This document shows positions 5,003 to 56,619 of a stretch of DNA of 64,000 nt, piece after piece. The notes beneath the pieces are model-generated. The model did no database searches. It had not been told where the DNA came from and saw only the letters and a program-made list of their open reading frames with translations. A program made the position numbers and the translations under genes. The stretch is from a virus. Taxonomy: Duplodnaviria; Heunggongvirae; Uroviricota; Caudoviricetes. The first letter of the stretch is position 1. Each line of letters starts with the position of its first letter. Location of the stretch: IMG/VR virus record IMGVR_UViG_3300013099_000019. One strand, written 5' to 3'.

Positions 5003-5802
<800 letters not shown>

Positions 5803-5803
<1 letters not shown>

Positions 5804-6159
5804 TGTCTATAAAAGATAGTATAAACGAAGTAGTACTTGAACTTTTGATTTTTTCTGTATTTGCTTTTATGCCTAATAATTTATTTTGTTATTATATAGC
5901 TATACTGCTTATTACATTATTAATAGGAGTTTGTATTTTTGATATGACTTTTGTTCCAATAATACAAAATATGGATGAAGATACACCCTTATTTTTAAAA
6001 ATTATTTCAAAAATTATACTATATAGTATTTTTATTATTTTGATTTACACAAAAGAATACGCTATGCTAACTTTTTTAACACTAGCTTGTTTATACATAA
6101 CTCTAACTTTAAAAATTGAGAGAAAAAGCCATGGAAATAGTACAACACCAAGTAATTAA
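5803..6159 (+). CDS. hypothetical multi-pass membrane protein
   Basis: Several hydrophobic stretches; starts on an ATGA overlap with the upstream gene. Confidence 0.45.
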
Positions 6160-6367
6160 TTTGACTTCCCGTAGTAAAAAAGGTAAAGAAAGGCTTAAAC
6201 GAGATGGAGAAAAACAATGGTATGTTTTAGGCATTGAAGATAGCGTACTATTTTCTACAGAAAAAGGGCCCTGGTTACATCTTGTAAAAGTTGGAGCTTT
6301 TAAAGCTAATACAGCACGTTGGGTTCATCAAACAAATGATCCAGATTTTAAAATTGTAAAAGAGTAA
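6116..6367 (+). CDS. hypothetical protein, tandem paralog A
   Basis: Shares K[EG]RLKRDG.K.W.VL....VLFS.EKGPWL....NDP.F.IV with the next ORF. The start may instead be the ATG at 6131. Confidence 0.45.
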   Translation: MREKAMEIVQHQVINLTSRSKKGKERLKRDGEKQWYVLGIEDSVLFSTEKGPWLHLVKVGAFKANTARWVHQTNDPDFKIVKE

Positions 6368-8144: not shown

Positions 8145-9494
8145 ATGATAGAACAAGAAATAACATCAAAACTTGAAGAAGCAGGTTTTGAAGTATATAT
8201 TGTAGGTGGAGCAGTACGTGACTTTATTTTAGGAGAAATTCCTAAAGATTATGATTTTGCTACAAATGCTAAACCAAATGAAGTTATTAGAATTTTTAAT
8301 GATAAAAAAATATGTGTTGTAGGTAAGTCTTTTAAAGTAGTATTAGTTAATGATGTAGAAATTGCTACTTACAGGAAAGATTTACAGGAAGTAATGTTTA
8401 ACCCTAAACATTGTAAGCCTGAATATGCTAAAAATATTACAGAAGATCTTGAACGTAGAGACTTGACTATAAATGCAATGGCTATACAAGTGCATAAAAC
8501 GCTCCTAAATGAAAGAGTTATACTTGACCTACATGGTGGTATAAATGATTTAAATAATGGTGTTATACGCCTTGTAGGTGATCCTTACACTCGTTTAAAT
8601 CAAGATCCGTGTCGTATATTAAGAGCTTGTAGATTTCTTGCTAAAATAGAAGGAACATTTGAAGCAGAAACTTTTAAGGCTTTACAAGATTGTGCTCATT
8701 ATATTAAATCTTATGTTGAGCCAGAACGTATCCGTATAGAAATACTTAAAGCTATGGAACTTAAAGTACCTTCTTTATTTTTTAGTGCTCTACACTTAAT
8801 TGGTGGTTTAAAATATATTTTTCCAGAGTTAGACAAATGTTTTCAACATGATCACGGTAAATATCATAAAGAAAATATAGGCGAACATTGTATGCATGCA
8901 GGAGATGTAGTATCTTCTAGATTTCCTTTACTTCGCTTGGCCGCTTTTTTACATGATGTTGGAAAACCTAAAGCATTTAAGAAACAAGGTGATGGAAGTT
9001 TTATATGTCATGAACTTTATGGAGAAAAAATTGTTATAGAAAGATTACAAAATTTAAAATTTTCTAATAAAGAAGTAGCAACTATAGCCAATCTTGTAGG
9101 TTCACATATGCTTCAATGCAGAAGTTTAAAAGCTAAAGGTATTAGACGCTTACATAAAAAATTAGCAGATAAAAAAGTAGATTCACGTTCCTTTATCCGT
9201 TTAAAACTTGCGGATAGATCTTCTAATATGGCTAAAGATGCTAGTCGTTTTACACCAATTAAAGAATTAATAGTAAATGCCGGAATTCGTGGCTATAAAG
9301 AAGAAATACCTTTTACTGTGAAGGAATTAACAATTTCTGGTGGAGAATTAATTGATTATTTTAATCTAATACCTGGACCTATAGTAGGTAATCTTCAAAA
9401 ATATCTTTTAAACTATGTAATAGAAATGGGAGAAGAGTTTAACACTAGAGATATTCTATTAAAAGAAGCAAAATTAATATTAAAAACTATATAA
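8145..9494 (+). CDS. cca: tRNA nucleotidyltransferase (CCA-adding enzyme) with HD domain
   Basis: N-terminus YIVGGAVRDFILG...DYDFAT is the class-II nucleotidyltransferase head. Downstream HD-type His/Asp motifs (HDVGK) follow. Length is 449 aa. Confidence 0.8.
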   Translation: MIEQEITSKLEEAGFEVYIVGGAVRDFILGEIPKDYDFATNAKPNEVIRIFNDKKICVVGKSFKVVLVNDVEIATYRKDLQEVMFNPKHCKPEYAKNITEDLERRDLTINAMAIQVHKTLLNERVILDLHGGINDLNNGVIRLVGDPYTRLNQDPCRILRACRFLAKIEGTFEAETFKALQDCAHYIKSYVEPERIRIEILKAMELKVPSLFFSALHLIGGLKYIFPELDKCFQHDHGKYHKENIGEHCMHAGDVVSSRFPLLRLAAFLHDVGKPKAFKKQGDGSFICHELYGEKIVIERLQNLKFSNKEVATIANLVGSHMLQCRSLKAKGIRRLHKKLADKKVDSRSFIRLKLADRSSNMAKDASRFTPIKELIVNAGIRGYKEEIPFTVKELTISGGELIDYFNLIPGPIVGNLQKYLLNYVIEMGEEFNTRDILLKEAKLILKTI

Positions 9495-27433: not shown

Positions 27434-27496
27434 AAATATATTTCGGAAAAGACGAAGTATTGTAGTGAGTTCTAGTACTTAATCTTGGAGGTATAT

Positions 27497-28597
27497 ATGA
27501 TAGTAATAAAATCAAACATAATGAGTGGTAGATGGTTAGAGTACAAACTTGCCAGAATGTCCTTGAAGCTTAGAAAAGAATTAAATGTTAATTTAGGAGA
27601 ATTTATTAGGTTTAAAAATGATACTATTTTACAAGTAGATAGAGCATTTAATGAAGATATTTTAAAATACGGAGAAGATAAAATATTTGTTACCTCAGAT
27701 ACTTTTAATCTTATTGACAATAATAATGACATAGAAATTGTAGATACAATAACTATGGGTTGTGACCCAGAATTATTTATTGTTAATAGGTATAGTGGAA
27801 AACTTATACCGTCTTCTAATTTTTTTAAAAAATGGGATTCTATAGGTTATGACGGTTTATTATGCGAATTAAGACCTAATCCACATATAAAACCTGAAAT
27901 TGTAACTAACACTTTATTTGGTATGATTAATACTATACAAAATAAATATATCGAACAAGGACTTACACAACTAATGTCTTATGCCTCTTCTGCAGCTTTT
28001 GGGCTTACCGCAGGATTTCATTGTCATATGGGCATACCAAAAAATTTACTTAATAAACGTTCACCTAATTACCAAACATATGTAAATATGTTAGTAAAAA
28101 CTTTAGATTATTACGTGGGTGTTTTATCTATAATTCCTGAAGGTACAGCAGAAAATCAAAGAAGATGTGCACCTTTTGTAAGTTATGGTAAAGTATCTGA
28201 TTATAGAATAGATAATCGTACTTTAGAATATAGAGTACCAGGAGGAGCACTATTAAAATCTCCAGCATTGGCTTGTGGACTCATGAGTTTATGCTCATTA
28301 GTATCAACAGATGTTATATCTAAATTAAAAGATTATACAAATGATTTTAAACATACACAAATACCTGCCGAAAAAATATTACTAAAAGAATTATATCCGA
28401 ATGTACCAGAAATAAAAGAGTTGTACCAATTAATTTGTGTACCTGATACCACAAGTGCTGTAAAAATTTCAGAATCTATATTTGATGAATTATCCAACAT
28501 GTTGGATTATAAAAAACATAAAAAAAACGTTGTTGCTTTTAAAGATAGTATTTATAAAAATACAAGTAATGATATTTGGAATAATTGGAAAGAATAA
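27497..28597 (+). CDS. GCS2 / glutamine-synthetase-like amidoligase, paralog 2
   Basis: MGCDPELFIV and GFHCHMGIP give the same G.DPE[FL]F plus HxH architecture as the ORF at 15624. Start moved to the ATG that follows the GGAGG RBS. Confidence 0.5.
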   Translation: MIVIKSNIMSGRWLEYKLARMSLKLRKELNVNLGEFIRFKNDTILQVDRAFNEDILKYGEDKIFVTSDTFNLIDNNNDIEIVDTITMGCDPELFIVNRYSGKLIPSSNFFKKWDSIGYDGLLCELRPNPHIKPEIVTNTLFGMINTIQNKYIEQGLTQLMSYASSAAFGLTAGFHCHMGIPKNLLNKRSPNYQTYVNMLVKTLDYYVGVLSIIPEGTAENQRRCAPFVSYGKVSDYRIDNRTLEYRVPGGALLKSPALACGLMSLCSLVSTDVISKLKDYTNDFKHTQIPAEKILLKELYPNVPEIKELYQLICVPDTTSAVKISESIFDELSNMLDYKKHKKNVVAFKDSIYKNTSNDIWNNWKE

Positions 28598-31554: not shown

Positions 31555-33303
31555 ATGTGTGGAATTGTAGGAATATTTCCGTTTAATAATTTACAAGATA
31601 AACAAGAACAAGCAAGAAAAGAAGCTGCTTTATTTTTATTTACTGAGCTTTTACAGACTACCAGTGCCAGAGGAGAAGATGCTACAGGTGTAACTACATT
31701 ATTTGAAAATGGGGATTACATGATTCAAAAAATGGGTATCTCTTCTCCTAAATTTATTAGCCGTTTTGGAAATAAGGCAAGTGACTTTGAAGGCTATACA
31801 AGTTTATGTTTAAAAAATGAAAAACGTATAAAAGCTTTGATAGGTCATTGTAGAAAAAGCTCGGTTGGTAATACTTATGATAATGAAAATAACCATCCAA
31901 TTAAAGCAGGAGAAATTGTAGGTATCCATAATGGTACACTTAAAAATCATAATAAAATCTTTAAAAATTTAGAATGTGAAAGAGATGGTGTAGTAGATAG
32001 TGAAGCTATTTTTAGACTGATACAGCATTTCACTAATGATTGTAAAGAACCTCTTACACTTAATATTCTTGAAGAAACTGTACGTCGTTTGGATGGTTCT
32101 TACAGTTGTTTAACTTATAATGCTAATATTCCATATCAAATTGGTATTTTTAGAGATGCAAGACCTATGGAATTTGCTTTAATTAAAGGTTTAAACCTGT
32201 TAGTTGTAGCTTCAGAAAAGAAATTTATTGATAAAGCATTATATGATTACAATAAGTATGCTAAATTATATAAAACAAGTTTTAAAATGATTAAAGCTGC
32301 TGATGTGTCAAATGCTTCTTTTCTTAATAATTATGTGGGTATTATAGATCTTACCCAAAAAATTAATAAAGATACAATTATAAATGATTTAATAATTAAA
32401 AAAGATGTTTTTAAAACTGAAAAAATCTGGAAAAGTACTGATGTATATGATTATTATAATAGACGCAAACAAGTAAAAAATATTAATACAAAAAGTACTA
32501 ATGTAACCACTACTAAAACTACTGGTGTTACCGAAAAAAAGTCGGGTTTGACCTCCACTAGTTTTGCGGAGGGAGATACTACAAAACAAAGTGGTATTGA
32601 AGGAAAAATATTCTGTAAAGAGCTTAATAAGTATATTGATCCTGAATCTGTAGAGTATACTTCAAAAATAGGTTGTGTAGAAATTGCTAATACAGGTAAA
32701 AAAGTATTAAGAATTGAAGAAAATCCTATTATTGACGCTGAATTTATGAAAGTAGCTGATGTGACTCCTCCAAAGATTACTACTAAAGAAGTTGATTTAA
32801 ATGTAGATACAGATATAATTGAGGGTTCAAAAAATTCTAATGACTCTTTATTAAAATATAAAAGTAACGAAGATTTAGCAGAAGATATTGAAGCGAATGA
32901 TGTTAAATCCGTAGAAGCACTTCCAGCTTTCGCTCTAGCAAATAGGATAAGAAAACATGCTTATGAAGCTGCTTTTATAGACGGCGCAACTTTTTATAAA
33001 AAATTAGATGTTAATACTAAATTGGATAAACTGCAAAAAATCCTTAAGTTTTCTAAAAAAATTATAAGAATTTTAGCTTTAAACACTGAATTACGTTCTA
33101 TAAACAATAATAATGATCAATCTAAAAAGTATTGTATGGAAGAGTGTGTAAGAGAAGAAGATACTAAAAAAGAATTAACTACAGAAGATTTAAATAAACT
33201 GGTTTCTACAGGGGATAAAACTGATTGTAAATCTTTAATACTTTTAGAAAAAGCAATAAAAGAGGTTAATGATGGAAAGGCACATACTGCTGGTAAAATC
33301 TAA
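31555..33303 (+). CDS. class-II (Ntn) glutamine amidotransferase domain protein with long low-complexity C-terminal region
   Basis: N-terminal MCGIVGI has the Cys nucleophile at position 2, as in PurF/GlmS/AsnB, followed by ...GHCRKSSVG...HNG. The C-terminal half is Lys/Thr/Asp-rich. Confidence 0.65.
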   Translation: MCGIVGIFPFNNLQDKQEQARKEAALFLFTELLQTTSARGEDATGVTTLFENGDYMIQKMGISSPKFISRFGNKASDFEGYTSLCLKNEKRIKALIGHCRKSSVGNTYDNENNHPIKAGEIVGIHNGTLKNHNKIFKNLECERDGVVDSEAIFRLIQHFTNDCKEPLTLNILEETVRRLDGSYSCLTYNANIPYQIGIFRDARPMEFALIKGLNLLVVASEKKFIDKALYDYNKYAKLYKTSFKMIKAADVSNASFLNNYVGIIDLTQKINKDTIINDLIIKKDVFKTEKIWKSTDVYDYYNRRKQVKNINTKSTNVTTTKTTGVTEKKSGLTSTSFAEGDTTKQSGIEGKIFCKELNKYIDPESVEYTSKIGCVEIANTGKKVLRIEENPIIDAEFMKVADVTPPKITTKEVDLNVDTDIIEGSKNSNDSLLKYKSNEDLAEDIEANDVKSVEALPAFALANRIRKHAYEAAFIDGATFYKKLDVNTKLDKLQKILKFSKKIIRILALNTELRSINNNNDQSKKYCMEECVREEDTKKELTTEDLNKLVSTGDKTDCKSLILLEKAIKEVNDGKAHTAGKI

Positions 33304-33307
33304 TAGT

Positions 33308-34579
33308 ATGGATAATAATAAGAAGGAGGGTAGACAAGAAAATACCCTTCTTCGTGCAGCAAATACTACTAGAGATTACTTAAAACTAGACGCTGATGTT
33401 GTAAAAAATATTCATAGTTCAAAAAATGAATATTCTGATGACTTGTATCCTTTTAAAGCTTATGCTAGAGATATTAAAAGAGTAAAAGAACTACAAGAAG
33501 CAGGTATAATTAAAGAAAAAGATTTAAATAAAGTATGCTTCGTAACAACTAGTACTTTTAATAAATTTACAAAACAGCCTGAAAAACAATTTATTACTGC
33601 AATTTTAGATAAAAATTTTGATAAATTACTTATAGGAACAGACCCAGAATTACTTTTAATGCATAATAACGAAGTAGTTCATGCAAGTAATATACCTAAT
33701 TTCTCAAAACTTTCAAAATTCGGTAGTGACGGTGCCATGGCAGAATTACGCCCTGATCCAGCATTTACATCTAAAGGCCTTGTAGAAAATATACGTAAAT
33801 TATTAACAGATAATGAATTAACAGCTAGCATTAAAAAATATGATTGGTTATCTGCATGTTATTTTGAAAATGCTAATAGAGATTTTCCTGTAGGAACTCA
33901 TTTACATTTTGACAATCCTACAAAAATAAAAAATATTGATATGATGCAAAGAAAACGTTTATTTGCAGTAACCAATAAAATTATTGACGAACTACTTACA
34001 GTACCTATGATACGTTTAGATGGCCTTTCTGGACATAATAGAAGAGCTAAATGTAAAATGAGTCAGGTGGGCGGTTTTGGAAATAACTACGGTGTCGGTT
34101 ATGGATTTTTTGGAGAGTGGCGTGTCTGTGAAGGAAGATTAGAACACAGAAGTTTATCTGGATTAGTAATTTCTGATCCAAAAATTTGTGAGGCTGTGTT
34201 CGGTGTTGGACAAGCTATTGTTGAAGCAGTATACAAAGAAGCCATCAATAACGATTTAAACTCAGAATTTATTTTGCCCAAAAATTTTGATTCTAACACT
34301 ATATATTCAAAACTTTTTAAAGACTGGCAAAAAATTCCGCTAGCAAAGACTTTTAATTGTACAAAAACAACTAATTTTATGCGTAATATTATGGATAAAA
34401 GTTCCAGAGTAGATATTAGTGTTGAGTACATAAAAAGATGGTTAAAAAATATTAGAAAATTACCTACTTACGGAAAATATGAACACAGTGTAGAGTTTTT
34501 AGGAGAATTGTTATCTAAAAATTCAAAATCACTTGATAAATTAGATAAAAACATTAAACATAATTGGGGAATAATATGA
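33308..34579 (+). CDS. GCS2 / glutamine-synthetase-like amidoligase, paralog 4
   Basis: IGTDPELLLMH and VGTHLHFDNP. Start set at the ATG just after the upstream stop. Confidence 0.5.
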   Translation: MDNNKKEGRQENTLLRAANTTRDYLKLDADVVKNIHSSKNEYSDDLYPFKAYARDIKRVKELQEAGIIKEKDLNKVCFVTTSTFNKFTKQPEKQFITAILDKNFDKLLIGTDPELLLMHNNEVVHASNIPNFSKLSKFGSDGAMAELRPDPAFTSKGLVENIRKLLTDNELTASIKKYDWLSACYFENANRDFPVGTHLHFDNPTKIKNIDMMQRKRLFAVTNKIIDELLTVPMIRLDGLSGHNRRAKCKMSQVGGFGNNYGVGYGFFGEWRVCEGRLEHRSLSGLVISDPKICEAVFGVGQAIVEAVYKEAINNDLNSEFILPKNFDSNTIYSKLFKDWQKIPLAKTFNCTKTTNFMRNIMDKSSRVDISVEYIKRWLKNIRKLPTYGKYEHSVEFLGELLSKNSKSLDKLDKNIKHNWGII

Positions 34580-35625
34580 AAAAGACTTATGTATGGTATT
34601 CAGCAGCGACAGATGTTACAGGTAAAAAACTTGCAGAAGAGTTAGGGTGTGAGAGTGGTACTGCACGCCCTGCCGCAAAATTTGATAAAGTTATTTGTTG
34701 GGGAACAAAAACTAAAGATAATGTAAATTTGGCTCCAAAAAAAGTATTTAATCATCCAAATAATATTCAAGTAAACCGTAACAAATTAAGCGCTCTTGTA
34801 AAAATGAAAGATGTAAACTGTAACGTAGCTAGATTTTCTAAAAATGTAGCAGACCTTGAATTTCCTATGATTGCTCGTACAAAATATCATCAGGGCGGTG
34901 CAGGTTTCTGGCTTTGTTTAAATAAAACTCAAGTAACTCAAGCTGCAAAAGAAGGTGCCCAATATTATCAGAAATATATTGATATAAAAGATGAATATCG
35001 ACTACATGTAGTTGATGGTAAAGTAATTTATGCAGTAAAGAAGGTTGCACGTAAAAATCTTAAAGATGCTTTTGTAAATCATTATACAAATTACATTATT
35101 AATTATGCAGGTAAAAATAATATTAATGTAGATGCTGATTCACTTGCTTTTATTCTTAAAAGACTTGCACGTAAAATGGCTACAGGTGTTGATATGATCG
35201 TAAGATCTAACACTCGTGGTTGGAAATTTAGCAAAATTAATATTGAAAATCTTCCTGCTAACTTAAAGGCACAAGCACTTAAAGCTGTAGAAGCTTTAGG
35301 TCTTGACTATGCGGCAGTAGATTGCTGTATTACTGATGCTGATGATGCGTATATTATTGAATGCAATACTGGGCCTGGTCTTGAAGGAAGTTCTTTTGAT
35401 GCTTGGGTAAAAGCACTTATTAAGTTGATAAAACCTAAGGCTGATGCTAAAAAAGTTGTTTTGGCAAAGAAGAAGGTAGTTGGTGTTGGTAAGGAAATAG
35501 CAAAAGATGTTGTTAAAGGAAAACTTAAAGCCAAAGCTAAAATGATGGAAGCTATGGTAGATGCGGCTGATAACGCTCAACTTGAAGCATTAGAAAATCT
35601 TTGGAAAAAAATGGGTATGGCTTAA
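34576..35625 (+). CDS. ATP-grasp ligase (RimK/glutathione-synthetase-like)
   Basis: EYRLHVVDGKVIYAVKK (central ATP-grasp strand), then YAAVDCCITDADDAYIIECNTGPGLEG (the E-x-N Mg/ATP motif), then a Lys/Ala-rich tail. Confidence 0.6.
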   Translation: MKKTYVWYSAATDVTGKKLAEELGCESGTARPAAKFDKVICWGTKTKDNVNLAPKKVFNHPNNIQVNRNKLSALVKMKDVNCNVARFSKNVADLEFPMIARTKYHQGGAGFWLCLNKTQVTQAAKEGAQYYQKYIDIKDEYRLHVVDGKVIYAVKKVARKNLKDAFVNHYTNYIINYAGKNNINVDADSLAFILKRLARKMATGVDMIVRSNTRGWKFSKINIENLPANLKAQALKAVEALGLDYAAVDCCITDADDAYIIECNTGPGLEGSSFDAWVKALIKLIKPKADAKKVVLAKKKVVGVGKEIAKDVVKGKLKAKAKMMEAMVDAADNAQLEALENLWKKMGMA

Positions 35626-39416: not shown

Positions 39417-39985
39417 AAATGGAAGATTTTAAAAAAGAAACTACATTTACGCATTTAGAAATTTGTGAAAAATTAGGTAAAGCTTTAGTTGATCTTAATG
39501 CTGATCAAATAGCTTCTTTATACAATAAAATTTTTATGTCTTATAGTGATTTTGAGTATAAAGGTGATGATAAATATGTTTTAACTGAATATGCTCCTAT
39601 GAAAAAAGGTGAAGGAGACCACATAGTTGTTGGGGCTTATTATGAATTACCTAATGGAAAAATTGCTTATATCTACGGGTATCATGGGTTAAAAAGAGTT
39701 GTATCTTACTACTTTGATGATAATCAAGGTGGAAGAAGTATAAGCTTTGAAAAAGTAAAAAGCTGGAAAAAAAGAAATAAGTTGAAGGATTTTCCTAATG
39801 CTAAAGACCCAAAATTACCTTATGTTTTTGATTTGTTCTGGGATATTAAACATTATTCAGAACTTAAAAATTTAATAGCTGAACACAGTGAAGATTGGTT
39901 AGAACATGAAGGTGTTATTGAAGAAATTGTTAAAAATAAATTGTCAAATAAATTTTTAAGTAATAAAATTATTGACAATTTGTAA
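39410..39985 (+). CDS. hypothetical protein
   Basis: 191-aa ORF overlapping the upstream stop. Confidence 0.45.
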   Translation: MLKMEDFKKETTFTHLEICEKLGKALVDLNADQIASLYNKIFMSYSDFEYKGDDKYVLTEYAPMKKGEGDHIVVGAYYELPNGKIAYIYGYHGLKRVVSYYFDDNQGGRSISFEKVKSWKKRNKLKDFPNAKDPKLPYVFDLFWDIKHYSELKNLIAEHSEDWLEHEGVIEEIVKNKLSNKFLSNKIIDNL

Positions 39986-40006
39986 AAAAAGTAGTATAAT
40001 AAAGTT

Positions 40007-40084
40007 TAGAGATGGTGTATAGTACAGTTACTTCAACTTGTAAATTGACCTGTAAAACTGTACTAGTTTGTTCCTCTCTATTTT
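40007..40084 (+). ncRNA. conserved extended hairpin element, copy 1 (terminator-like; candidate small ncRNA / Y-RNA-like)
   Basis: tagagatgg-tgtat-agtacagt-tacttca...actgtact-agtttgtt-cctctcta-tttt. Two helices (tagagaNgg/cctctcta and agtacagt/actgtact) flank an internal loop. The element is near-identical to the copy at 44317. Confidence 0.6.
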
Positions 40085-40742: not shown

Positions 40743-40812
40743 GAATATATAGCTCAATTGGAAGAGTGATAGGCTTTCCCCTATGACGTAGGTTCAATTC
40801 CTACTATATTCT
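40743..40812 (+). tRNA. tRNA-like gene with non-canonical anticodon arm (possibly Glu-UUC-like)
   Basis: Acceptor gaatata/tatattc (7 bp), D arm gctc..gagt, T arm gtagg-ttcaatt-cctac. The anticodon stem atagg/cctat only pairs if the loop is 6 nt (ctttcc). The variable region is 3 nt. Confidence 0.45.
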
Positions 40813-40822
40813 GAACAAACAT

Positions 40823-41151
40823 GGGCGTGTGGCGGAACGGCAGACGCATGGGAGGACCAGAAAGTCAGTCCCCTTTTATTAGAAATAGTAATCGAAAATT
40901 GGATGAATTCAAGGAAGGCTAAACCTAACTATTAGGTATGCTAACCCTGAGCGAAGCCTTAAGTACACTTAAGGAACGTGCAGAGACTACCTGAGAGATA
41001 TAGTTCTCTTAATAACAGGCAAGAGCGTCCGATACCTTAACAAATAAAGTTGCAGGTAATGAGATAGTCCATGCTACTATGAAAATAGTAGACACACAGC
41101 TTAAAATCCCTTGATCTTATGATCGTGAGAGTTCGAATCTCTCCATGCCCA
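40823..41151 (+). tRNA. tRNA-Leu(UAA)-like gene interrupted by a ~246-nt group-I-like intron
   Basis: 5' part gggcgtg-tg-gcg-gaacggcaga-cgc-a-tggga (Leu-type D arm). 3' part cttaaaa-tccct-[tgatcttatgatcgt]-gagag-ttcgaat-ctctc-catgccc-a. Acceptor gggcgtg/catgccc is fully paired. Confidence 0.6.
40854..41099 (+). other. group-I-like intron (IA-type R and S elements) within tRNA-Leu
   Basis: R-like cagagactac and S-like gagatagtcc match T4-type group IA consensus (UCAGAGACUACA / AAGAUAUAGUCC). A P9-like hairpin ctacta..tagtag is present. The intron ends with G (41099) directly before the anticodon loop cttaaaa. Confidence 0.5.
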
Positions 41152-41597: not shown

Positions 41598-41676
41598 AGG
41601 GTGATATTCTAACGGTAAGGAGCCAGGTTTTGATCCTGGTGCGAAAGCTCTGCAGGTTCGAATCCTGCTCACCCTG
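41598..41676 (+). tRNA. tRNA-Gln(UUG)-like with unusually long (12-nt) variable region
   Basis: Acceptor agggtga/tcaccct. Anticodon stem ccagg/cctgg with loop ttttgat (anticodon TTG). T arm gcagg-ttcgaat-cctgc. Confidence 0.55.
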
Positions 41677-41686
41677 AATAAAAAAT

Positions 41687-42003
41687 TTCTAATCTGGAAG
41701 GTTGGCTTAGAAGCAGCAATCCTTTAAAGAGTAGAGCAAGTACGGATCGCAAACGATGAAGCTACGAGTTGCCCAAAACACTTGTAGTGGAGATGAAGTT
41801 GGGCCAGAGTAATAAGTAAATGACGTCATACTTATAAGAGGTGATGCCTGTCTATACTACGACAAGACAACATAAAAGTATATAGATGGTAGATGCAGTC
41901 CTGCTCCTGATGAGGCGAACGAGTTGTACATGGTAAGTAGTGAAGTACCCCAGAAATGGTAAGGCGGCACTCTCTTTTGGCGTAATAGCACACCAGATTA
42001 GAA
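41687..42003 (+). ncRNA. candidate ~315-nt structured non-coding RNA in tRNA cluster
   Basis: No ORF on either strand. GC-enriched relative to flanks. An 11-bp terminal inverted repeat (ttctaatctgg / ccagattagaa) would close the domain. It lies between two tRNA genes. Confidence 0.45.
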
Positions 42004-42582: not shown

Positions 42583-42804
42583 ATGTGTGATACTTGTAAA
42601 GAATTATTTAAATTATTAGAAGAATGTATAGAGTCATCTTGTGATGAGTGTAATTATCATGAGTACTCTACAGTTGCAATATCTGATTACTGTACAAATG
42701 ATGCCAGTCCTAAAAGTGCTGGATGGATGAGCGGTTCTTATGGGTGTAGTCATCATTCAAAGATAAAACAATTAAAAGAAAAATACTTGACATTAATTGA
42801 GTAG
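42583..42804 (+). CDS. Cys-rich small protein
   Basis: MCDTCKELFK...CDECNYHEY...CTND; start follows an AAGGAG RBS. Confidence 0.45.
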   Translation: MCDTCKELFKLLEECIESSCDECNYHEYSTVAISDYCTNDASPKSAGWMSGSYGCSHHSKIKQLKEKYLTLIE

Positions 42805-42806
42805 TG

Positions 42807-42815
42807 TGTTATAAT
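42807..42815 (+). promoter_or_regulatory. extended -10 promoter element (tgttataat) immediately upstream of tRNA-like gene
   Basis: TGnTATAAT lies 8 nt before the 5' end of the tRNA-like gene at 42823. Confidence 0.4.
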
Positions 42816-42822
42816 ACAAATA

Positions 42823-42953
42823 TTGGAAGTAGCTCAGTGGTAGAGCCTCAGCCCCCAAAAAATCTCTTTTCGCTTATTCCCTTAACTGTGGTGTAGAATA
42901 GAGATACTTCATACTCAAGCTGATGGTCGTTGGTTCAATCCCAACCTTCCAAT
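42823..42953 (+). ncRNA. tRNA-like gene with 66-nt conserved structured insert replacing/expanding the anticodon loop (insert family member 1)
   Basis: Acceptor ttggaag/cttccaa (7/7). D arm gctc-agtggta-gagc. Anticodon stem tcagc/gctga encloses 66 nt. T arm gttgg-ttcaatc-ccaac. The insert carries the TGCTTATTCC and GGTGTAGAATAGAGATACTTCA blocks. Confidence 0.55.
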
Positions 42954-42960
42954 TAAAATG

Positions 42961-43134
42961 TTAGAGATGGCGAAACTGGTATACGCGCTGGTAAAAAAAG
43001 CCTTTATTTGCTTATTCCCTTTATATGTAACCGTCTAGGATGGTTGCTATTTCAGTGGTGTAGAATAAAGATACTTCAAATGGGAACCGGTTAGGTTAAT
43101 CCTAGTGTAGGTTCGAGTCCTACTCTCTAGCCCA
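42961..43134 (+). ncRNA. tRNA-like gene (type II, CCA encoded) with 93-nt conserved insert (insert family member 2)
   Basis: Acceptor ttagaga/tctctag (t-g at 1:72). D arm gcg-aaactggtata-cgc. Stem ctggt/accgg encloses the insert. Variable hairpin tagg-ttaat-ccta. T arm gtagg-ttcgagt-cctac, then c-cca. The insert contains TGCTTATTCC and GGTGTAGAATAAAGATACTTCA. Confidence 0.5.
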
Positions 43135-44316: not shown

Positions 44317-44391
44317 TAGAGATGGTGTATAGTACAGTTACTTCACTTTTAATGAAACTAACACTGTACTAGTTTGTTCCTCTCTATTTTT
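44317..44391 (+). ncRNA. conserved extended hairpin element, copy 2 (terminator-like; candidate Y-RNA-like), adjacent to tRNA-Met and the Ro60-like gene
   Basis: Same 5' arm tagagatggtgtatagtacagttacttca and 3' arm actgtactagtttgttcctctcta-ttttt as copy 1. The apical region differs between copies. Confidence 0.6.
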
Positions 44392-44393
44392 AA

Positions 44394-44468
44394 GGGCATT
44401 TAGCTTAGCTGGCCAAAAGCCATCGGCTCATAACCGATCGATCCGGGGTTCGACTCCCTGAATGCCCA
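44394..44468 (+). tRNA. tRNA-Met/Ile2 (CAU anticodon), elongator-type
   Basis: Acceptor gggcatt/aatgccc with a paired 1:72. Anticodon stem atcgg/ccgat with loop ctcataa (CAT). T loop ttcgact. Confidence 0.65.
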
Positions 44469-44512
44469 AGTATATTTATATAATTAATAATACCTTGTAA
44501 GGAGGAATTACA

Positions 44513-45889
44513 ATGGCGAGTTTAAACAAAAAACCAGTAGTAAAATTTACACATGAAGGTGGTAAAGCAAAACATATCAATGCTGCACTTGAACTTGAAA
44601 GGACAGTTATGGCTTGTATGCTTTGGGAAAGATCTTTTTATGAGTCTGGAGAATCTATTGTAGATAGAATTCAACAACTTGTAGCTAAAGTAGCCCCTAA
44701 AAAAGTAGCTGAGCTGGCAATAAAAGCACGTTATGATATGAAACTTCGTCATGTACCTTTATTACTTGTAAGTATTATGGTAAAATTACCAGCTTACAGG
44801 CCTTATGTTTCTGATACTTTATTTCAAATTATCAATAGACCTGATGAAATGGCAGAATTTTTAGCTATGTATTGGAAAGATGGAAAATGTCCTGTAGCTA
44901 ATTCTGTTAAAAGAGGTTTGGCCTCTTGTTTTCTTAAATTTAATGAGTATCAATTTTCTAAATGGAATAGACCTAATGCTATTAAACTAAGAGATGTAAT
45001 GTTTATTTGTCATCCTAAACCTGTAAATAAAAAGCAAGAAGATATGTTCAAAAGAATTGCTGATGATACTCTTGAAGTTCCTGATACTTGGGAAGTAGCA
45101 CTTAGTTCAGGAGCAGATAAGCAAAAAACATGGACAAGATTACTAGAAGAGAAAAAGTTGGGCGGTATGGCTCTTATCAGAAATCTTCGTAACATGGAGA
45201 ATGTAGGAGTAGATAAGCAATTAGTTAAAAAAAGTATTACAGAAATAAAATCTAATTTTATTTTACCCTTTAGATACATTGCTGCAGCAAAATATGCTCC
45301 TAAATTTGAACCAGAATTAGAGTATGCTATGTTTAATTCTTTAGTTACACACGATAAATTAAAAGGAAATACAGTTCTTTTGATTGATGTTTCTGGTTCT
45401 ATGTGGCAATCTCTTTCAAGTAAATCAGATATGTTACGAATTGATACTGCTTGTGGTTTAGCTATGTTACTTAGAGAAATTTGTGAAGATATAGATATTT
45501 ATACTTTCTCATTAGAATTAAAAAGTGTAGCTCCAAGAAGAGGTTTTGCACTTAGGGATGCGATTATAAATTCTCAAGATCATAGTGGAACATATTTAGG
45601 CCATGCAGTAAAAAATATTTATGCAAAGAAGGGTAGTAGTGACAGGTTTTCTGGTTATTACAGGGGACACCTTACGTTTAAAGGCCAAGGACTAAGTCCA
45701 GAACGTCTTATTGTTATAACTGATGAACAGTCCGCAGATAAAGTACCTAATCCAAAAGGTAAAGGTTATATGATGAATGTAGCCTCTTATCAAAATGGTG
45801 TAGGGTATGGCGCTTGGACACATATTGATGGTTTTAGTGAGTCATGTGTGAAATGGTTACAAGCTATGGAAAATTGTGCATTTTTATAA
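44513..45889 (+). CDS. Ro60-like (TROVE domain + vWA domain) RNA-binding protein
   Basis: The N-terminal ~300 aa resemble the Ro/TROVE fold (ERSFYESGESIVDRIQQLV...KLRHVPLLLVSIM). The C-terminus has the vWA MIDAS motif VLLIDVSGSMW. A TROVE+vWA pair is the Ro60/Rsr architecture. AGGAGG RBS is present. Confidence 0.55.
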   Translation: MASLNKKPVVKFTHEGGKAKHINAALELERTVMACMLWERSFYESGESIVDRIQQLVAKVAPKKVAELAIKARYDMKLRHVPLLLVSIMVKLPAYRPYVSDTLFQIINRPDEMAEFLAMYWKDGKCPVANSVKRGLASCFLKFNEYQFSKWNRPNAIKLRDVMFICHPKPVNKKQEDMFKRIADDTLEVPDTWEVALSSGADKQKTWTRLLEEKKLGGMALIRNLRNMENVGVDKQLVKKSITEIKSNFILPFRYIAAAKYAPKFEPELEYAMFNSLVTHDKLKGNTVLLIDVSGSMWQSLSSKSDMLRIDTACGLAMLLREICEDIDIYTFSLELKSVAPRRGFALRDAIINSQDHSGTYLGHAVKNIYAKKGSSDRFSGYYRGHLTFKGQGLSPERLIVITDEQSADKVPNPKGKGYMMNVASYQNGVGYGAWTHIDGFSESCVKWLQAMENCAFL

Positions 45890-50849: not shown

Positions 50850-50974
50850 TGCGCTGTGATGTAATTGGTAACATGGAAAATCTCACTTTTTGCTTATTCC
50901 TCTTTTAGATGGTGTAAAAAAGTGTTACTTCATATCATAAATGGCCTCTCCAGGTTCGAGTCCTGGCGGCGCAA
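50850..50974 (+). ncRNA. tRNA-like gene with ~70-nt conserved insert (insert family member 3); anticodon stem not identifiable
   Basis: Acceptor tgcgctg/cggcgca. D arm atgt-aattggta-acat. T arm ccagg-ttcgagt-cctgg. The internal region carries TGCTTATTCC and GGTGTAAAAAAGTGTTACTTCA, with helix cacttttt/aaaaagtg. Confidence 0.5.
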
Positions 50975-55290: not shown

Positions 55291-56619
55291 ATGGAATTTT
55301 TTTCAGCAACAATGATTAGTATTGCAGTAGTCAGTATTGCAGTAGCACTTTGTATAACAATTTTAATAGCATCATTTATTTTTAGAGTAGTCGTTCCTAC
55401 TAATAAAGTACATACTGTACAATCAAAAAAGAAAACTACTTCTTACGGTAAAGGTTTAGATTATGGAAATGTATATTATCGTTGGCCTTCTTGGGTACCT
55501 ATTGTAGGTATTACCCGTATTATTATGCCTACGTCAATTTTTGATATTAATCTCAATGATTATAGTGCGTATGATCAGGACAGACTACCTTTTGTTGTAG
55601 ATGTAATGGGATTTTTTCAAGTAGATACTCCTGAAGTAGCAGCACAAAGAGTAGACAATTTTGAAGAGCTTTATAAGCAGCTTGAAAATATTTTAAAAGG
55701 TGCTATTAGAACTATCCTTGCTAACTCCCCACTTGAAAATATTTTGGGCAATCGTGGAGAATTTGGTGAATCTTTTACAGCAGAAGTTGAAGGGCAACTT
55801 TCAGCTTGGGGTGTCAAATCTGTTAAGAATATTGAACTTATGGATATTAGAGACGCTAGAGAGTCAAATGTTATTGACAATATTATGGCCAAAAAGAAAT
55901 CTGAAATTGAACGTGAAAGTCGTATTGAAGTAGCAAACAATCATAAAGAAGCAGAAATGGCTGAGATTGATGCTAAAAAAGAAGCAGATGTACGAAAACA
56001 AGAGGCCTTAAAAATTGTAGGAGAAAAGGCTGCTGAAAAAGAAAAAGCTGTAGGTATTGCTCAAGAAATTGCAGAACAAGAAATTAAAACACAGTCTAAG
56101 ATTACTGCAGAAAAAGACATGGCTGTTCTTAAAGTAGAACAAGAAAAACAGGCAGATATTGATAAGAATGTTGCTATTATCAATGCTGAAAAAGACAAAG
56201 AAGCTAAACGTCTTTCTGCTGAAGCTGATCTTATCCAACAAGAAAAAGAAGCTGAAGGTATCTTTGCTATAGGTAAGTCAGAGGCTGAAGCAGAAAAACT
56301 TATGCTTATGGCACCTGTAGAGGCACAGATTACTCTTGCACAAGAGATTGGTAGTAATGAAGGTTACATGGATTACTTACTTGGAACAGAAGGTATTAAA
56401 GCTGGACAGATAGTAGGTGAAGCTAAAGCAGAAGCTATGGCTACAGCAGACCTGAAAATTATTACTAATGCTGGCACTACTGAAGGTGGTATTAACAAAA
56501 TGATGGATGTGTTTTCAGCTAAAGGCGGTACAGAGCTAGGAAGCATGCTTGAAACACTAAGCCAAACTCCAGTGGGTAAGGCTGTTATGGAAAAATTGGT
56601 AGGTAAAAATATAAAATAA
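55291..56619 (+). CDS. SPFH/band-7 (flotillin/YqiK-like) membrane protein
   Basis: N-terminal TM helix. SPFH core (FVVDVMGFFQVDTPEVAAQRVDNFEELYKQLENILKGAIRTILANSPLENILGNRGEF...WGVKSVKNIELMDI). Long Glu/Ala/Lys coiled-coil tail. Confidence 0.6.
   Translation: MEFFSATMISIAVVSIAVALCITILIASFIFRVVVPTNKVHTVQSKKKTTSYGKGLDYGNVYYRWPSWVPIVGITRIIMPTSIFDINLNDYSAYDQDRLPFVVDVMGFFQVDTPEVAAQRVDNFEELYKQLENILKGAIRTILANSPLENILGNRGEFGESFTAEVEGQLSAWGVKSVKNIELMDIRDARESNVIDNIMAKKKSEIERESRIEVANNHKEAEMAEIDAKKEADVRKQEALKIVGEKAAEKEKAVGIAQEIAEQEIKTQSKITAEKDMAVLKVEQEKQADIDKNVAIINAEKDKEAKRLSAEADLIQQEKEAEGIFAIGKSEAEAEKLMLMAPVEAQITLAQEIGSNEGYMDYLLGTEGIKAGQIVGEAKAEAMATADLKIITNAGTTEGGINKMMDVFSAKGGTELGSMLETLSQTPVGKAVMEKLVGKNIK

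What the first reader, a model, noticed from the sequence alone, without database searches (positions are those of the whole stretch)
44317..45889. Ro60-like TROVE+vWA protein encoded next to candidate Y-RNA-like elements
The ORF at 44513-45889 has a TROVE-like N-terminal region and a vWA MIDAS motif (DVSGSM). This is the Ro60/Rsr architecture, a protein that binds misfolded structured RNAs and non-coding Y RNAs. Bacterial and phage Y RNAs are known to mimic tRNAs and are usually encoded within a few hundred bp of rsr. Here the gene is 120 nt downstream of a conserved bulged-stem hairpin ending in a U-run (44317-44391). It also sits in a cluster of tRNA-like RNAs with structured inserts that share the hairpin's GGTGTA..TACTTCA motif. 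Hypothesis: a phage Ro60/Y-RNA ribonucleoprotein module with novel tRNA-scaffolded Y RNAs.
Basis: partly seen in the sequence, partly recalled or inferred. Interest (0 to 1): 0.9.

Follow-up and report, generated by a model that had tools for sequence, protein, structure and literature searches.

The report
Phage Ro60 with tRNA-shaped Y RNAs
A large uncultured phage encodes a Ro60-type RNA-binding ring protein and five small RNAs carrying its likely docking site; this protein-plus-Y-RNA pairing is already known in phages, but three of these RNAs are built as ordinary-looking tRNAs with the docking site in the anticodon arm, a layout I did not find described.

Summary
ORF 44513-45889 is a Ro60/Rsr-type protein (TROVE Pfam E 1.9e-18; MIDAS DVSGSM; the AlphaFold model matches phage, frog, human and Deinococcus Ro60 over its full length). 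The hairpin 44317-44391 and four other RNAs (40007-40084, 42823-42953, 42960-43134, 50850-50974) share one two-stranded module: stem1-U-GG | YGWA | 8-bp stem2 | UUACUUC ... stem2' | GYUURUU | CC-stem1'.

The 5' motif lies on the TROVE strand within 1 kb in 46 of 51 related phage loci. An RNA-first scan found a TROVE gene at 17 of 18 hits. Both helices covary strongly (72 modules, 16/16 pairs with double changes).

The module matches the published YrlA/YrlB signature (GNCGAAN0-1G plus YUAY), so these are Y RNAs of a known kind. Binding was shown experimentally only for the closest solved homologue, Thermus phage phiLo Ro60.

The layout is new as far as I could check. Three window RNAs, and eight elsewhere including two in cultured crAss001, are unpermuted tRNAs. 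They have an open 7-bp acceptor stem, sometimes an encoded CCA, and the Ro module capped inside the anticodon arm. That is the circular permutation of canonical YrlA. Binding and function remain untested here.

The parts
44513..45889 (+). Ro60/Rsr orthologue: TROVE (HEAT-repeat ring, about residues 10-280) followed by a vWA domain with MIDAS D292-V-S294-G-S296-M
   Evidence: Pfam TROVE E 1.9e-18. PHROG 850 E 7e-39. A profile of homologues hits PDB 9l5y/9kop at E 6e-41, human RO60 at 7e-8, Xenopus Ro at 1.5e-6 and D. radiodurans Rsr at 3e-3. The AF2 model has pLDDT 85 and pTM 0.82. Foldseek gives full-length matches at TM 0.73 to phage phiLo Ro60, 0.71 to Xenopus Ro and 0.61 to Rsr.
44317..44391 (+). 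Hairpin-type Y RNA H2 (YrlB-like). Layout: stem1 44317-22/44381-86, bulged U 44323, GG 44324-25 / CC 44379-80, internal loop UGUA 44326-29 / GUUUGUU 44372-78, stem2 44330-37/44364-71, UUACUUC 44338-44, U5 tail
   Evidence: Sequence. The MFE fold reproduces the structure, z -2.2. It fits the module consensus and covariation. Orthologues in L074 and L075 carry compensatory changes in stem1 and stem2.
40007..40084 (+). Hairpin-type Y RNA H1, a near-identical copy of H2 with a different loop, carrying its own promoter and a U-run
   Evidence: Repeat families D2, D4 and D7. Fold z -2.7. A perfect 12/12 promoter ends 7 nt upstream.
42823..42953 (+). tRNA-topology Y RNA A. It is a complete tRNA body: 7-bp acceptor UUGGAAG/CUUCCAA, D arm, 5-bp anticodon stem and T arm. 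The capped Ro module (stem2' 42864-71, GCUUAUUCC, cap loop, GGUGUA, stem2 42896-903, AUACUUC) replaces the anticodon loop
   Evidence: Rfam tRNA 50.2 bits with a 65-nt insert. The MFE gives a cloverleaf plus the module. Acceptor 7/7 in tRNA register. No U33-containing 7-nt loop can be restored by any simple excision (read directly from the sequence).
42960..43134 (+). tRNA-topology Y RNA B. The body is class-II (tRNA-Leu-like) with a long variable arm and an encoded discriminator plus CCA. The Ro module has stem2' at 43002-09 and stem2 at 43063-70, and a 39-nt cap that contains its own hairpin
   Evidence: Sequence. Fold. Acceptor 7/7 with tail C-CCA. Its stem2 differs from that of A by compensatory changes.
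50850..50974 (+). tRNA-topology Y RNA C: acceptor UGCGCUG/CGGCGCA, D-like arm, T arm, and a Ro module with stem2 CACUUUUU/AAAAAGUG and stem1 UCU/AGA closed by a UUU loop
   Evidence: The orthologue in L074 is conserved and carries a G.U to A-U change in the acceptor.
44394..44468 (+). tRNA-Met(CAU) lying between H2 and the Ro60 gene. This is context: Y RNAs and tRNAs are interleaved here as they are in relatives
   Evidence: ARAGORN. Rfam tRNA 62 bits. L074 shows the same arrangement, and L075 has the two in swapped order.
39972..40000 (+). Perfect sigma-70-type promoter (TTGACA-17-TATAAT) that would start transcription at the first bases of H1
   Evidence: 12/12 match.
42787..42815 (+). Perfect sigma-70-type promoter with an extended -10 TG. 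It would start transcription at or near position +1 of tRNA-topology RNA A, so A and B are probably made as one dimeric transcript
   Evidence: 12/12 match. The spacing to 42823 is read.

Best explanation
The window encodes a phage Ro60-Y RNA ribonucleoprotein system.

Components. The 458-aa protein is a Ro60/Rsr-type ring (TROVE HEAT repeats plus a vWA/MIDAS domain). Five small RNA genes on the same strand, spread over 11 kb, each display one conserved two-stranded module: stem1 (variable, 3-6 bp) - bulged U - GG/CC - internal loop (5' YGWA, here UGUA; 3' GYUURUU) - 8-bp stem2 - UUACUUC. This is this lineage's form of the Ro60-binding module of bacterial YrlA/YrlB.

Two RNA types. Two RNAs are about 78-nt hairpins with nothing but the module and a loop (YrlB-like). 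Three are tRNA-shaped, with an open 7-bp acceptor stem, D and T arms, and in one case an encoded CCA. In these the module is capped and sits where the anticodon loop should be. That is canonical YrlA circularly permuted back to tRNA order.

Proposed mechanism (inferred by homology with D. radiodurans, Salmonella and phiLo).
1. The RNAs are made from strong host-type promoters or cut out of tRNA-cluster transcripts by tRNA-processing enzymes.
2. Ro60 binds the bulged module on its outer surface.
3. The hairpin RNAs act as gates or regulators of the ring.
4. The tRNA-shaped RNAs tether Ro60 to a tRNA-recognising effector. Candidates are host PNPase as in RYPER, CCA-adding enzyme, RNase P/Z, or RtcB in relatives.
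5. The resulting RNP degrades or repairs structured RNAs (tRNA, rRNA) during infection.

What is shown and what is inferred. Shown here: protein family and fold, RNA module structure and covariation, genomic linkage, and RNA topology. Inferred: physical binding, processing, the effector, and the biological role.
For: Protein.
- TROVE hit; profile hits to solved Ro60/Rsr structures.
- Full-length fold match, TM 0.6-0.73.
- Invariant MIDAS D292/S294/S296 plus D404.

RNA module.
- 5 copies in the window against 0.02 expected.
- Motif density 1.14/kb on the TROVE strand within 1 kb, against 0.05/kb elsewhere or on the other strand; present in 46 of 51 loci.
- An RNA-only pattern scan of IMG/VR returned 18 stretches, and 17 carry a TROVE gene on the same strand within 1 kb.
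- In 72 non-identical modules, 93.5% of cells are paired against 59% in shuffles. All 16 pairs show double changes. The covariation score is 0.877 against 0.218 (0 of 500 shuffles reach it) and 0.12-0.20 in slid controls.
- Stem1 and GG/CC were barely used for ascertainment, yet are 90.5% paired, with G-C to A-U 7 times and G-C to C-G 4 times.

Identity with Y RNAs.
- The published YrlA/YrlB motif GNCGAAN0-1G and the YUAY that begins the V loop (PMC4201824) correspond to GG-YGWA-N8-UUAC.
- 23 relatives have canonical YrlA order, motif then T arm then closed acceptor then D arm then 3' strand. Bacterial Acidobacteria loci do too.
- The closest solved homologue binds adjacent Yrl1/Yrl2 and host PNPase (PMC12135203).

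tRNA topology.
- 11 examples with a 7/7 acceptor helix (one 6/7) in exact tRNA register, all with different sequences. CCA is encoded in 3 of them.
- RNA A scores 50 bits on the Rfam tRNA model.

Expression. Perfect promoters lie in front of H1 and A.
Against: - No binding, expression or processing data exist for this phage.
- The window's motif is GGUGUA rather than the published CGAA, so it deviates at two positions of the literature consensus. Both variants are common in the family, however (C/U 45:27, A/U 32:39).
- In the tRNA-shaped RNAs stem1 is capped and sometimes only 2-3 bp long, whereas known Y RNAs present open 5'/3' ends there. Whether Ro60 accepts a capped stem is unknown.
- Single-sequence folding z-scores are modest, -1.3 to -2.7.
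- Stem2 covariation is partly circular, because partners were chosen by complementarity.
- No Rfam family matched these RNAs, so membership in YrlA rests on motif and architecture, not on a curated model.
- The phiLo Yrl region shares only CGAA, not the extended module.
Confidence: 0.85

Rival explanations
1. The three tRNA-shaped elements are ordinary phage tRNA genes interrupted by an intron or mobile insertion. After excision they decode codons, and the shared motif belongs to the intron, not to a Ro60 site.
For: They sit in a tRNA cluster in which another tRNA carries a group I intron. RNA A scores 50 bits as a tRNA with the insert in the anticodon loop. Window B, L202 and L258 encode CCA.
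Against: - The inserts (65-95 nt) are far too short for group I introns and match no Rfam intron.
- No excision restores a 7-nt loop with U33 in A (sequence).
- L031, L026 and C have no anticodon stem at all; stem2 takes its place.
- The same module occurs without any tRNA body in hairpins, and in permuted order in canonical YrlA relatives.
- The module tracks TROVE genes, not tRNA clusters.
Confidence: 0.04
2. The repeats are DNA- or transcript-level regulatory elements of the phage (promoter-proximal operators, terminators, or a dispersed repeat/MITE) that merely happen to lie near the TROVE gene.
For: Two copies end in U-runs, and one follows an ORF like a terminator. Two copies lie right behind consensus promoters. 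The family is dispersed over 11 kb.
Against: - Compensatory base-pair changes in two helices across 72 modules point to selection on RNA structure.
- Strict strand bias and 23-fold enrichment next to TROVE genes in unrelated phages.
- 17 of 18 RNA-first hits carry TROVE.
- The stems are AU-rich and weak as terminators, and none was called by the terminator scan.
Confidence: 0.03
3. The RNAs do bind Ro60, but they are cargo or decoys rather than tethers. For example, they could be tRNA mimics that soak up host anticodon nucleases or tRNA-targeting defence enzymes, with Ro60 only stabilising them. Alternatively they could be misfolded-tRNA-like substrates that keep the ring occupied.
For: Complete tRNA bodies with free acceptor ends would be recognised by tRNA-binding enzymes. 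The phage carries its own tRNA set and a CCA-adding enzyme. Relatives carry RtcB. The literature places TROVE proteins in RNA-repair and conflict contexts (PMC7824862).
Against: The anticodon loop, which is the usual target of anticodon nucleases, is absent. In the characterised systems Y RNAs act as tethers or gates (PMC4201824; PMC12135203). Nothing in this analysis distinguishes decoy from tether.
Confidence: 0.08

Closest known systems
YrlA (bacterial and mycobacteriophage tRNA-like Y RNA; Chen et al. 2014, PMC4201824; structure in bioRxiv 10.1101/312249)
   Same: It is encoded within a few kb of the Ro60 orthologue on the same strand. It has the 5' Ro-site motif (GNCGAAN0-1G, corresponding to GG-YGWA-G here) followed about 8 nt later by YUAY (UUAC here). 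The effector module is a tRNA mimic with conserved D and T arms. Many relatives of this window's locus have exactly the canonical order.
   Different: Canonical YrlA is a circularly permuted tRNA. Its ends lie in the Ro stem, its acceptor is closed by a loop, and it has no free CCA and no anticodon loop. The window's three RNAs have the opposite arrangement: an open 7-bp acceptor, CCA encoded in B, and a capped Ro stem. A and B even keep a 5-bp anticodon stem. The window's motif is UGUA, not CGAA. No curated Rfam model matched.
YrlB (short Salmonella Y RNA) and Yrl1/Yrl2 of Thermus phage phiLo (PMC12135203)
   Same: These are short stem-bulge-stem RNAs lacking a tRNA domain, encoded next to the Ro60 gene. 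The phiLo RNAs are experimentally bound by the protein that is this ORF's closest solved homologue. H1 and H2 have this design.
   Different: Apart from CGAA, the phiLo upstream region lacks the extended UUACUUC / GYUUGUUCC module. H1 and H2 carry UGUA. H1 lies 4.4 kb from the gene and has its own promoter.
Metazoan and Deinococcus Y RNAs bound by Ro60/Rsr (Xenopus 1YVP; D. radiodurans Yrn1)
   Same: A bulged helix formed by two conserved strands. The 5' strand resembles GGUCCGA (quoted in PMC4201824). The protein fold is the same.
   Different: Protein identity is only 13-17%. The RNA loop and effector modules are unrelated. My comparison of the 3' strands rests on memory of the hY RNA sequences and was not tested here.
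[quoted passage not shown]
   Same: It is a predicted tRNA-like RNA in normal tRNA order that is sometimes encoded next to Rsr. This window and crAss001 both carry a Band-7/SPFH gene a few kb downstream of the Ro60 gene.
   Different: It is described as strongly resembling an authentic tRNA, and no Ro-binding insert is mentioned in the text I could read. The original paper was not available, so overlap with the tRNA-topology class cannot be excluded.

Membership tests
Ro60/Rsr protein family | TROVE domain (HEAT-repeat ring) | tested here: met
   Pfam PF05731 E 1.9e-18, above the curated cut-off. The predicted all-helical N-terminal 280 residues superpose on Ro60 rings.
Ro60/Rsr protein family | C-terminal vWA domain with a MIDAS motif (DxSxS...T...D) | tested here: met
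   D292-V-S294-G-S296 is invariant, T360 nearly invariant and D404 invariant. An alpha/beta domain is predicted at 283-440. Full-length alignment to Ro60 structures, plus secondary vWA hits such as BatB 3ibs.
Ro60/Rsr protein family | Binds Y RNA on the outer surface and misfolded RNA ends in the central hole | not testable with these tools
   Only homology is available. phiLo Ro60 binds Yrl1/Yrl2 (PMC12135203).
YrlA/YrlB-type bacterial Y RNAs | Encoded near the Ro60 orthologue on the same strand (within 4 kb in Chen et al. 2014) | tested here: met
   H2 lies 122 nt from the gene and A and B about 1.4-1.6 kb from it. H1 (4.4 kb) and C (5 kb) lie slightly outside 4 kb. All are on the + strand.
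YrlA/YrlB-type bacterial Y RNAs | 5' motif GNCGAAN0-1G | tested here: inconclusive
   Relatives carry GGCGAAG or GGCGUAG. All five window copies read GGUGUA(G/U/A), which is C to U and A to U relative to the literature motif. Both positions are variable in the family alignment (C 45 / U 27; A 32 / U 39).
YrlA/YrlB-type bacterial Y RNAs | Conserved YUAY about 8 nt after the motif, beginning the V region | tested here: met
   UUAC or AUAC follows the motif in all copies. The Y at the first position is A in copies A and B.
YrlA (canonical) | tRNA-like domain in permuted order V-T-closed acceptor-D, with the RNA ends in the Ro stem and no free CCA | tested here: not met
   The window's tRNA-type RNAs have the order acceptor5'-D-(AC)-Ro module-(AC)-V-T-acceptor3', with an open acceptor and, in B, an encoded CCA. 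They work like YrlA but are not canonical YrlA. 23 relatives do meet this feature.
YrlA/YrlB-type bacterial Y RNAs | Co-immunoprecipitates with Rsr; tRNA modifications (Psi55, D) present | not testable with these tools
   No experimental data for this phage.
Transfer RNA (decoding) | 7-nt anticodon loop with U33 and an anticodon | tested here: not met
   The loop is replaced by 66 nt (A), about 95 nt (B), or the whole arm (C). No excision restores a canonical loop in A. ARAGORN does not call A, B or C.

The most novel reading that the evidence does not exclude
The tRNA-first Y RNAs form a distinct, recurrent class: an unpermuted tRNA body with a free, CCA-bearing acceptor end and a Ro60 site in place of the anticodon loop. 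Eleven were found in at least 8 phage lineages, including cultured crAss001. On this reading they are matured by RNase P, RNase Z and CCA-adding enzyme like tRNAs, and may even be aminoacylated. They would then couple Ro60 to tRNA-handling or translation machinery. They would also represent the ancestral form from which canonical, permuted YrlA arose through tandem dimers. The A-B tandem at 42823-43134 already contains the canonical order between A's 5' strand and B's 3' strand, and those two strands can pair 8/8.
Probability: 0.25. Interest if true: 0.8.

Novelty: new variant of a known kind. Interest (0 to 1): 0.55.

Why it matters
Ro60-Y RNA particles are conserved from bacteria to humans. 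Two questions about them remain open: what the tRNA-like half of bacterial Y RNAs does, and how it arose.

These phage RNAs show the same Ro module grafted onto a tRNA in its normal topology, with a free acceptor end. This bears on the origin question. Tandem copies of the tRNA-first form give the permuted YrlA order directly, which modifies the published 'dimeric tRNA' model.

It also makes the function question testable. One can ask whether these RNAs receive CCA, are charged, or recruit PNPase or RtcB.

The class is present downstream of gp96 in Bacteroides phage crAss001, so a cultured model of a very abundant human gut phage group is available for experiments.

Finally, the extended module consensus is specific enough to annotate Y RNAs in phage metagenomes, where no Rfam model currently finds them: the one variant scanned gave 17 of 18 RNA-first hits next to a TROVE gene.

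Tried and rejected
- Rfam. Gathering and E<=5 scans of the window, and a gathering scan of 12 related loci, found only tRNA, tmRNA and a group I intron. No Y RNA or YrlA family matched.
- Bacterial genome scan. The 14-base pattern GGCGAAG-N7-TTACTTC was too unspecific; on re-calculation about 4,400 chance matches are expected. Only 2 of 120 returned stretches had a TROVE gene and 3 had the full module. The scan is useful only for two bacterial examples with canonical YrlA order. It says nothing about prevalence.
- Partner assignment. Choosing the nearest or the best-scoring complement mis-paired neighbouring elements. I replaced this with a one-to-one assignment per locus.
- Acceptor test. A loose test (at least 6/7 pairs anywhere upstream) did not discriminate: 24 of 35 controls passed. 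I replaced it with an exact-register check.
- phiLo bridge. The Yrl region of phiLo shares only CGAA, not the extended module. It therefore supports function by protein homology only.
- Intron hypothesis for the tRNA inserts: rejected (see the first rival explanation).
- Promoter reading of GGTGTAGAAT as an extended -10 element: rejected on the evidence of covariation and linkage.
- Literature. Burroughs & Aravind 2016 and the 2020 Annual Review could not be read. No paper in the library links crAss-like phages to Y RNAs, but the library is incomplete.
- Window identity. The weak DNA hits to crAss-like phages mostly come from the group I intron. PHROG hits (RNAP beta-like, helicase, CCA enzyme) suggest only a large uncultured phage.
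Full report
1. The observation

ORF 44513-45889 (+, 458 aa) is a TROVE protein. Pfam PF05731 scores E 1.9e-18, 67 bits against a cut-off of 23. PHROG 850 'RNA-binding protein' scores E 7e-39 over the whole length. It is invariant in 20-25 homologues and aligns with DVSGSM of PDB 9l5y/9kop.

The hairpin at 44317-44391 is exactly as described, and a near-identical copy lies at 40007-40084. The 121-nt gap between hairpin and ORF holds tRNA-Met(CAU) at 44394-44468. The motif GGTGTA-N9/10-TACTTCA occurs five times, all on the + strand, against 0.02 expected.

2. The protein

A profile of homologues reaches solved Ro60 structures:
- phage phiLo Ro60 (9kop/9l5y), E 6e-41
- human RO60, E 7e-8
- Xenopus Ro, E 1.5e-6
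- D. radiodurans Rsr, E 3e-3

An AlphaFold2 model (pLDDT 85.4, pTM 0.82) has an all-helical N-terminal part followed by an alpha/beta domain. It superposes over its full length on phiLo Ro60 (TM 0.73), Xenopus Ro (0.71), Rsr (0.61) and human Ro60. It is therefore a Ro60/Rsr-type protein. The family is very large in metagenomes, with more than 8,000 hits. It occurs in 95 deposited phage genomes, including crAss001, Caulobacter, Xanthomonas and Rhizobium phages.

3. The RNAs share one module

Related loci fetched through the protein (51 IMG/VR contigs; cr106_1 and crAss001) carry the same 20-nt motif, G-Y-G-W-A-N8-(U/A)UACUUC, next to the TROVE gene.
- Its density is 1.14 per kb on the gene's strand within 1 kb, against 0.05 per kb further away or on the other strand. 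46 of 51 loci have it.
- The N8 pairs with an 8-mer that is always followed by G(C/U)UU(G/A)UUCC.
- The full module is: stem1 - U - GG | YGWA | N8 | UUACUUC ... N8' | GYUURUU | CC - stem1'.

I joined the two strands of 72 non-identical modules with an artificial AAAA linker (alignment A1) and counted pairs.
- 93.5% of cells are paired, against 59% in shuffles.
- All 16 pairs have double changes.
- The covariation score is 0.877, against 0.218 in shuffles (0 of 500 reach it) and 0.12-0.20 in slid controls.

Stem2 partners were chosen by complementarity, so that helix is partly circular. Stem1 and the GG/CC pairs carried almost no weight in the selection, yet they are 90.5% paired, with G-C to A-U seven times and G-C to C-G four times.

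As an unbiased reverse test, I scanned IMG/VR with an RNA-only pattern carrying 23 specified positions. It returned 18 stretches, and 17 carry a TROVE gene on the same strand within 1 kb.

Close relatives of the window (86% and 73% protein identity) have orthologous copies with compensatory changes.

4. What the module is

Chen et al. 2014 (PMC4201824) defined YrlA and YrlB by a 5' GNCGAAN0-1G motif, which resembles the GGUCCGA contacted by Xenopus Ro60. They also noted a conserved YUAY at nt 22-25 that opens the V region, and found the genes within 4 kb of rsr on the same strand in 254 bacteria and 22 phages. The module here, GG-(C/U)G(A/U)A-N8-UUAC, is that signature.

In 23 modules the order is the canonical YrlA one: motif, then a T arm about 20 nt later, then a closed acceptor hairpin, D arm and 3' strand. 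Two bacterial loci show the same order. Another 45 modules are plain hairpins, like YrlB.

The closest solved homologue, phiLo Ro60, binds two adjacent Y-RNA-like RNAs and assembles with host PNPase (PMC12135203). So a phage Ro60/Y-RNA module is a known kind of system, and this window contains one.

5. What differs

In three window RNAs the two strands of the module are in the opposite order, 3' strand first, and are joined by a short cap. The whole module is embedded in a tRNA.
- A (42823-42953) has a 7-bp acceptor, D arm, a 5-bp anticodon stem and a T arm. It scores 50 bits on the Rfam tRNA model with a 65-nt insert.
- B (42960-43134) has a class-II, tRNA-Leu-like body and an encoded discriminator plus CCA.
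- C (50850-50974) lacks an anticodon stem.

The same topology occurs in cr106_1, twice downstream of gp96 in crAss001, and in L031, L026, L202, L258 and L074. All 11 have a 7/7 acceptor helix (one 6/7) in exact tRNA register, each with a different sequence, and three encode CCA. RNAalifold on seven of them recovers the acceptor, the T arm and the module, with covariation.

The literature I could read describes YrlA as a circularly permuted tRNA with a closed acceptor, no free CCA and no anticodon loop (bioRxiv 10.1101/312249). The RNAs here are the unpermuted counterpart.

They are not interrupted decoding tRNAs. The inserts are too short for group I introns, no excision restores a U33 loop in A, and several lack an anticodon stem altogether.

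The A-B tandem is notable. The stretch from A's 5' strand to B's 3' strand has the canonical YrlA order, and those two strands can pair 8/8. Tandem tRNA-first Y RNAs therefore offer a direct route to the permuted form.

6. Expression

Three perfect TTGACA-17-TATAAT promoters occur in 12 kb. One ends 7 nt before H1 and one ends 7 nt before position +1 of A. H1 and H2 end in U-runs. B would need 5' processing from an A-B transcript.

7. Mechanism

Shown: the protein family and fold, the RNA module and its covariation, the linkage, and the topology.

Inferred from D. radiodurans, Salmonella and phiLo: Ro60 binds the bulged module; the hairpin RNAs gate the ring; the tRNA-shaped RNAs tether it to a tRNA-recognising effector for turnover or repair of structured RNA during infection.

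Context fits an RNA-repair or tRNA theme. The window has a tRNA cluster, a phage CCA-adding enzyme and a Band-7 protein. crAss001 also has a Band-7 protein, and a 73% relative has RtcB.

8. Caveats
- There are no binding or expression data for this phage.
- The window's motif is UGUA rather than CGAA.
- Whether Ro60 tolerates a capped stem1 is unknown.
- No Rfam model covers these RNAs.
- My bacterial genome scan was too unspecific to be informative.
- Burroughs & Aravind 2016, which described a tRNA-like 'b7a-tRNA' sometimes found next to Rsr, could not be read. Prior description of the tRNA-first class therefore cannot be excluded.

9. Verdict

The finding is real and correctly interpreted. 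The system is a known kind. The tRNA-first topology is, as far as I could check, a new variant. Interest is moderate (0.55).

Noticed in passing
window 41693-42002 (+): A non-coding stretch of about 310 nt closed by an 11-bp stem. Its two ends reproduce the 23S rRNA GTPase-associated centre / L11-binding domain (CUGGAAGGUUGGCUUAGAAGCAGCAAUCCUUUAAAGAG ... GGCGUAAUAGCACACCAG; the match to E. coli 1051-1108 is from memory), split by an insert of about 255 nt. The 5' part recurs at 87-95% identity in unannotated spots of jumbo phages (pf16, Milchi, XacN1, Aeromonas 4_4572). There is no Rfam hit and the fold z is only -1.0. It may be a phage-encoded mimic or decoy of an rRNA domain.
   Followed up: partly
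window 40819-41140 (+): A group I intron (Rfam 79 bits, E 1.8e-18) interrupts a class-II tRNA, probably tRNA-Leu(UAA). The acceptor is GGGCGUG...CAUGCCC-A, and the 3' exon appears to begin CUUAAAAUCCC. I did not work out the exact splice sites. Weak DNA hits to crAss-like phages fall on this intron.
   Followed up: partly
window 40743-40812 and 41598-41676 (+): Two odd tRNAs. One has a shortened anticodon loop and ARAGORN cannot assign an anticodon ('tt'). The other is tRNA-Gln(UUG)-like with about 10 extra nt in the variable region.
   Followed up: no
window 8145-9494 (+): A phage-encoded tRNA nucleotidyltransferase (CCA-adding enzyme), PHROG 2244 E 1.4e-62. It may be relevant to maturation of the tRNA-shaped Y RNAs that lack an encoded CCA.
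   Followed up: no
window 55291-56619 (+); L053 7691-8908: An SPFH/Band-7 protein (Pfam E 7.5e-16) lies 9.4 kb downstream of the Ro60 gene. crAss001 has one (gp91) 2.3 kb downstream of its TROVE gene. The literature links Band-7, tRNA-like RNAs, Rsr and RtcB in RNA-repair loci (bioRxiv 10.1101/312249).
   Followed up: partly
L075 10720-12326: The 73%-identical relative of the window's Ro60 locus carries RtcB RNA ligase as two adjacent ORFs, which may be split by an intein or intron, 7.5 kb downstream. The window itself has no RtcB by tblastn.
   Followed up: partly
window 27485-28597, 31555-35625 (+): A cluster of two phiEco32-like COOH-NH2 ligases, a glutamine amidotransferase-like protein and a RimK-type ATP-grasp enzyme. 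This looks like a peptide or amide-ligation module of unknown target.
   Followed up: no
L053 (crAss001, NC_049977 reverse complement) 5419-6325: The 900-nt 'empty' intergenic region after gp96 in cultured crAss001 holds at least five Y-RNA modules: three hairpin-type and two tRNA-shaped (5693-5838 and 5947-6087). None is annotated in the record.
   Followed up: yes
L074 6826-6905: The 86% relative has an extra hairpin-type Y RNA directly after its copy of RNA C. That hairpin is absent from the window, which points to rapid gain and loss of Y RNA copies.
   Followed up: no
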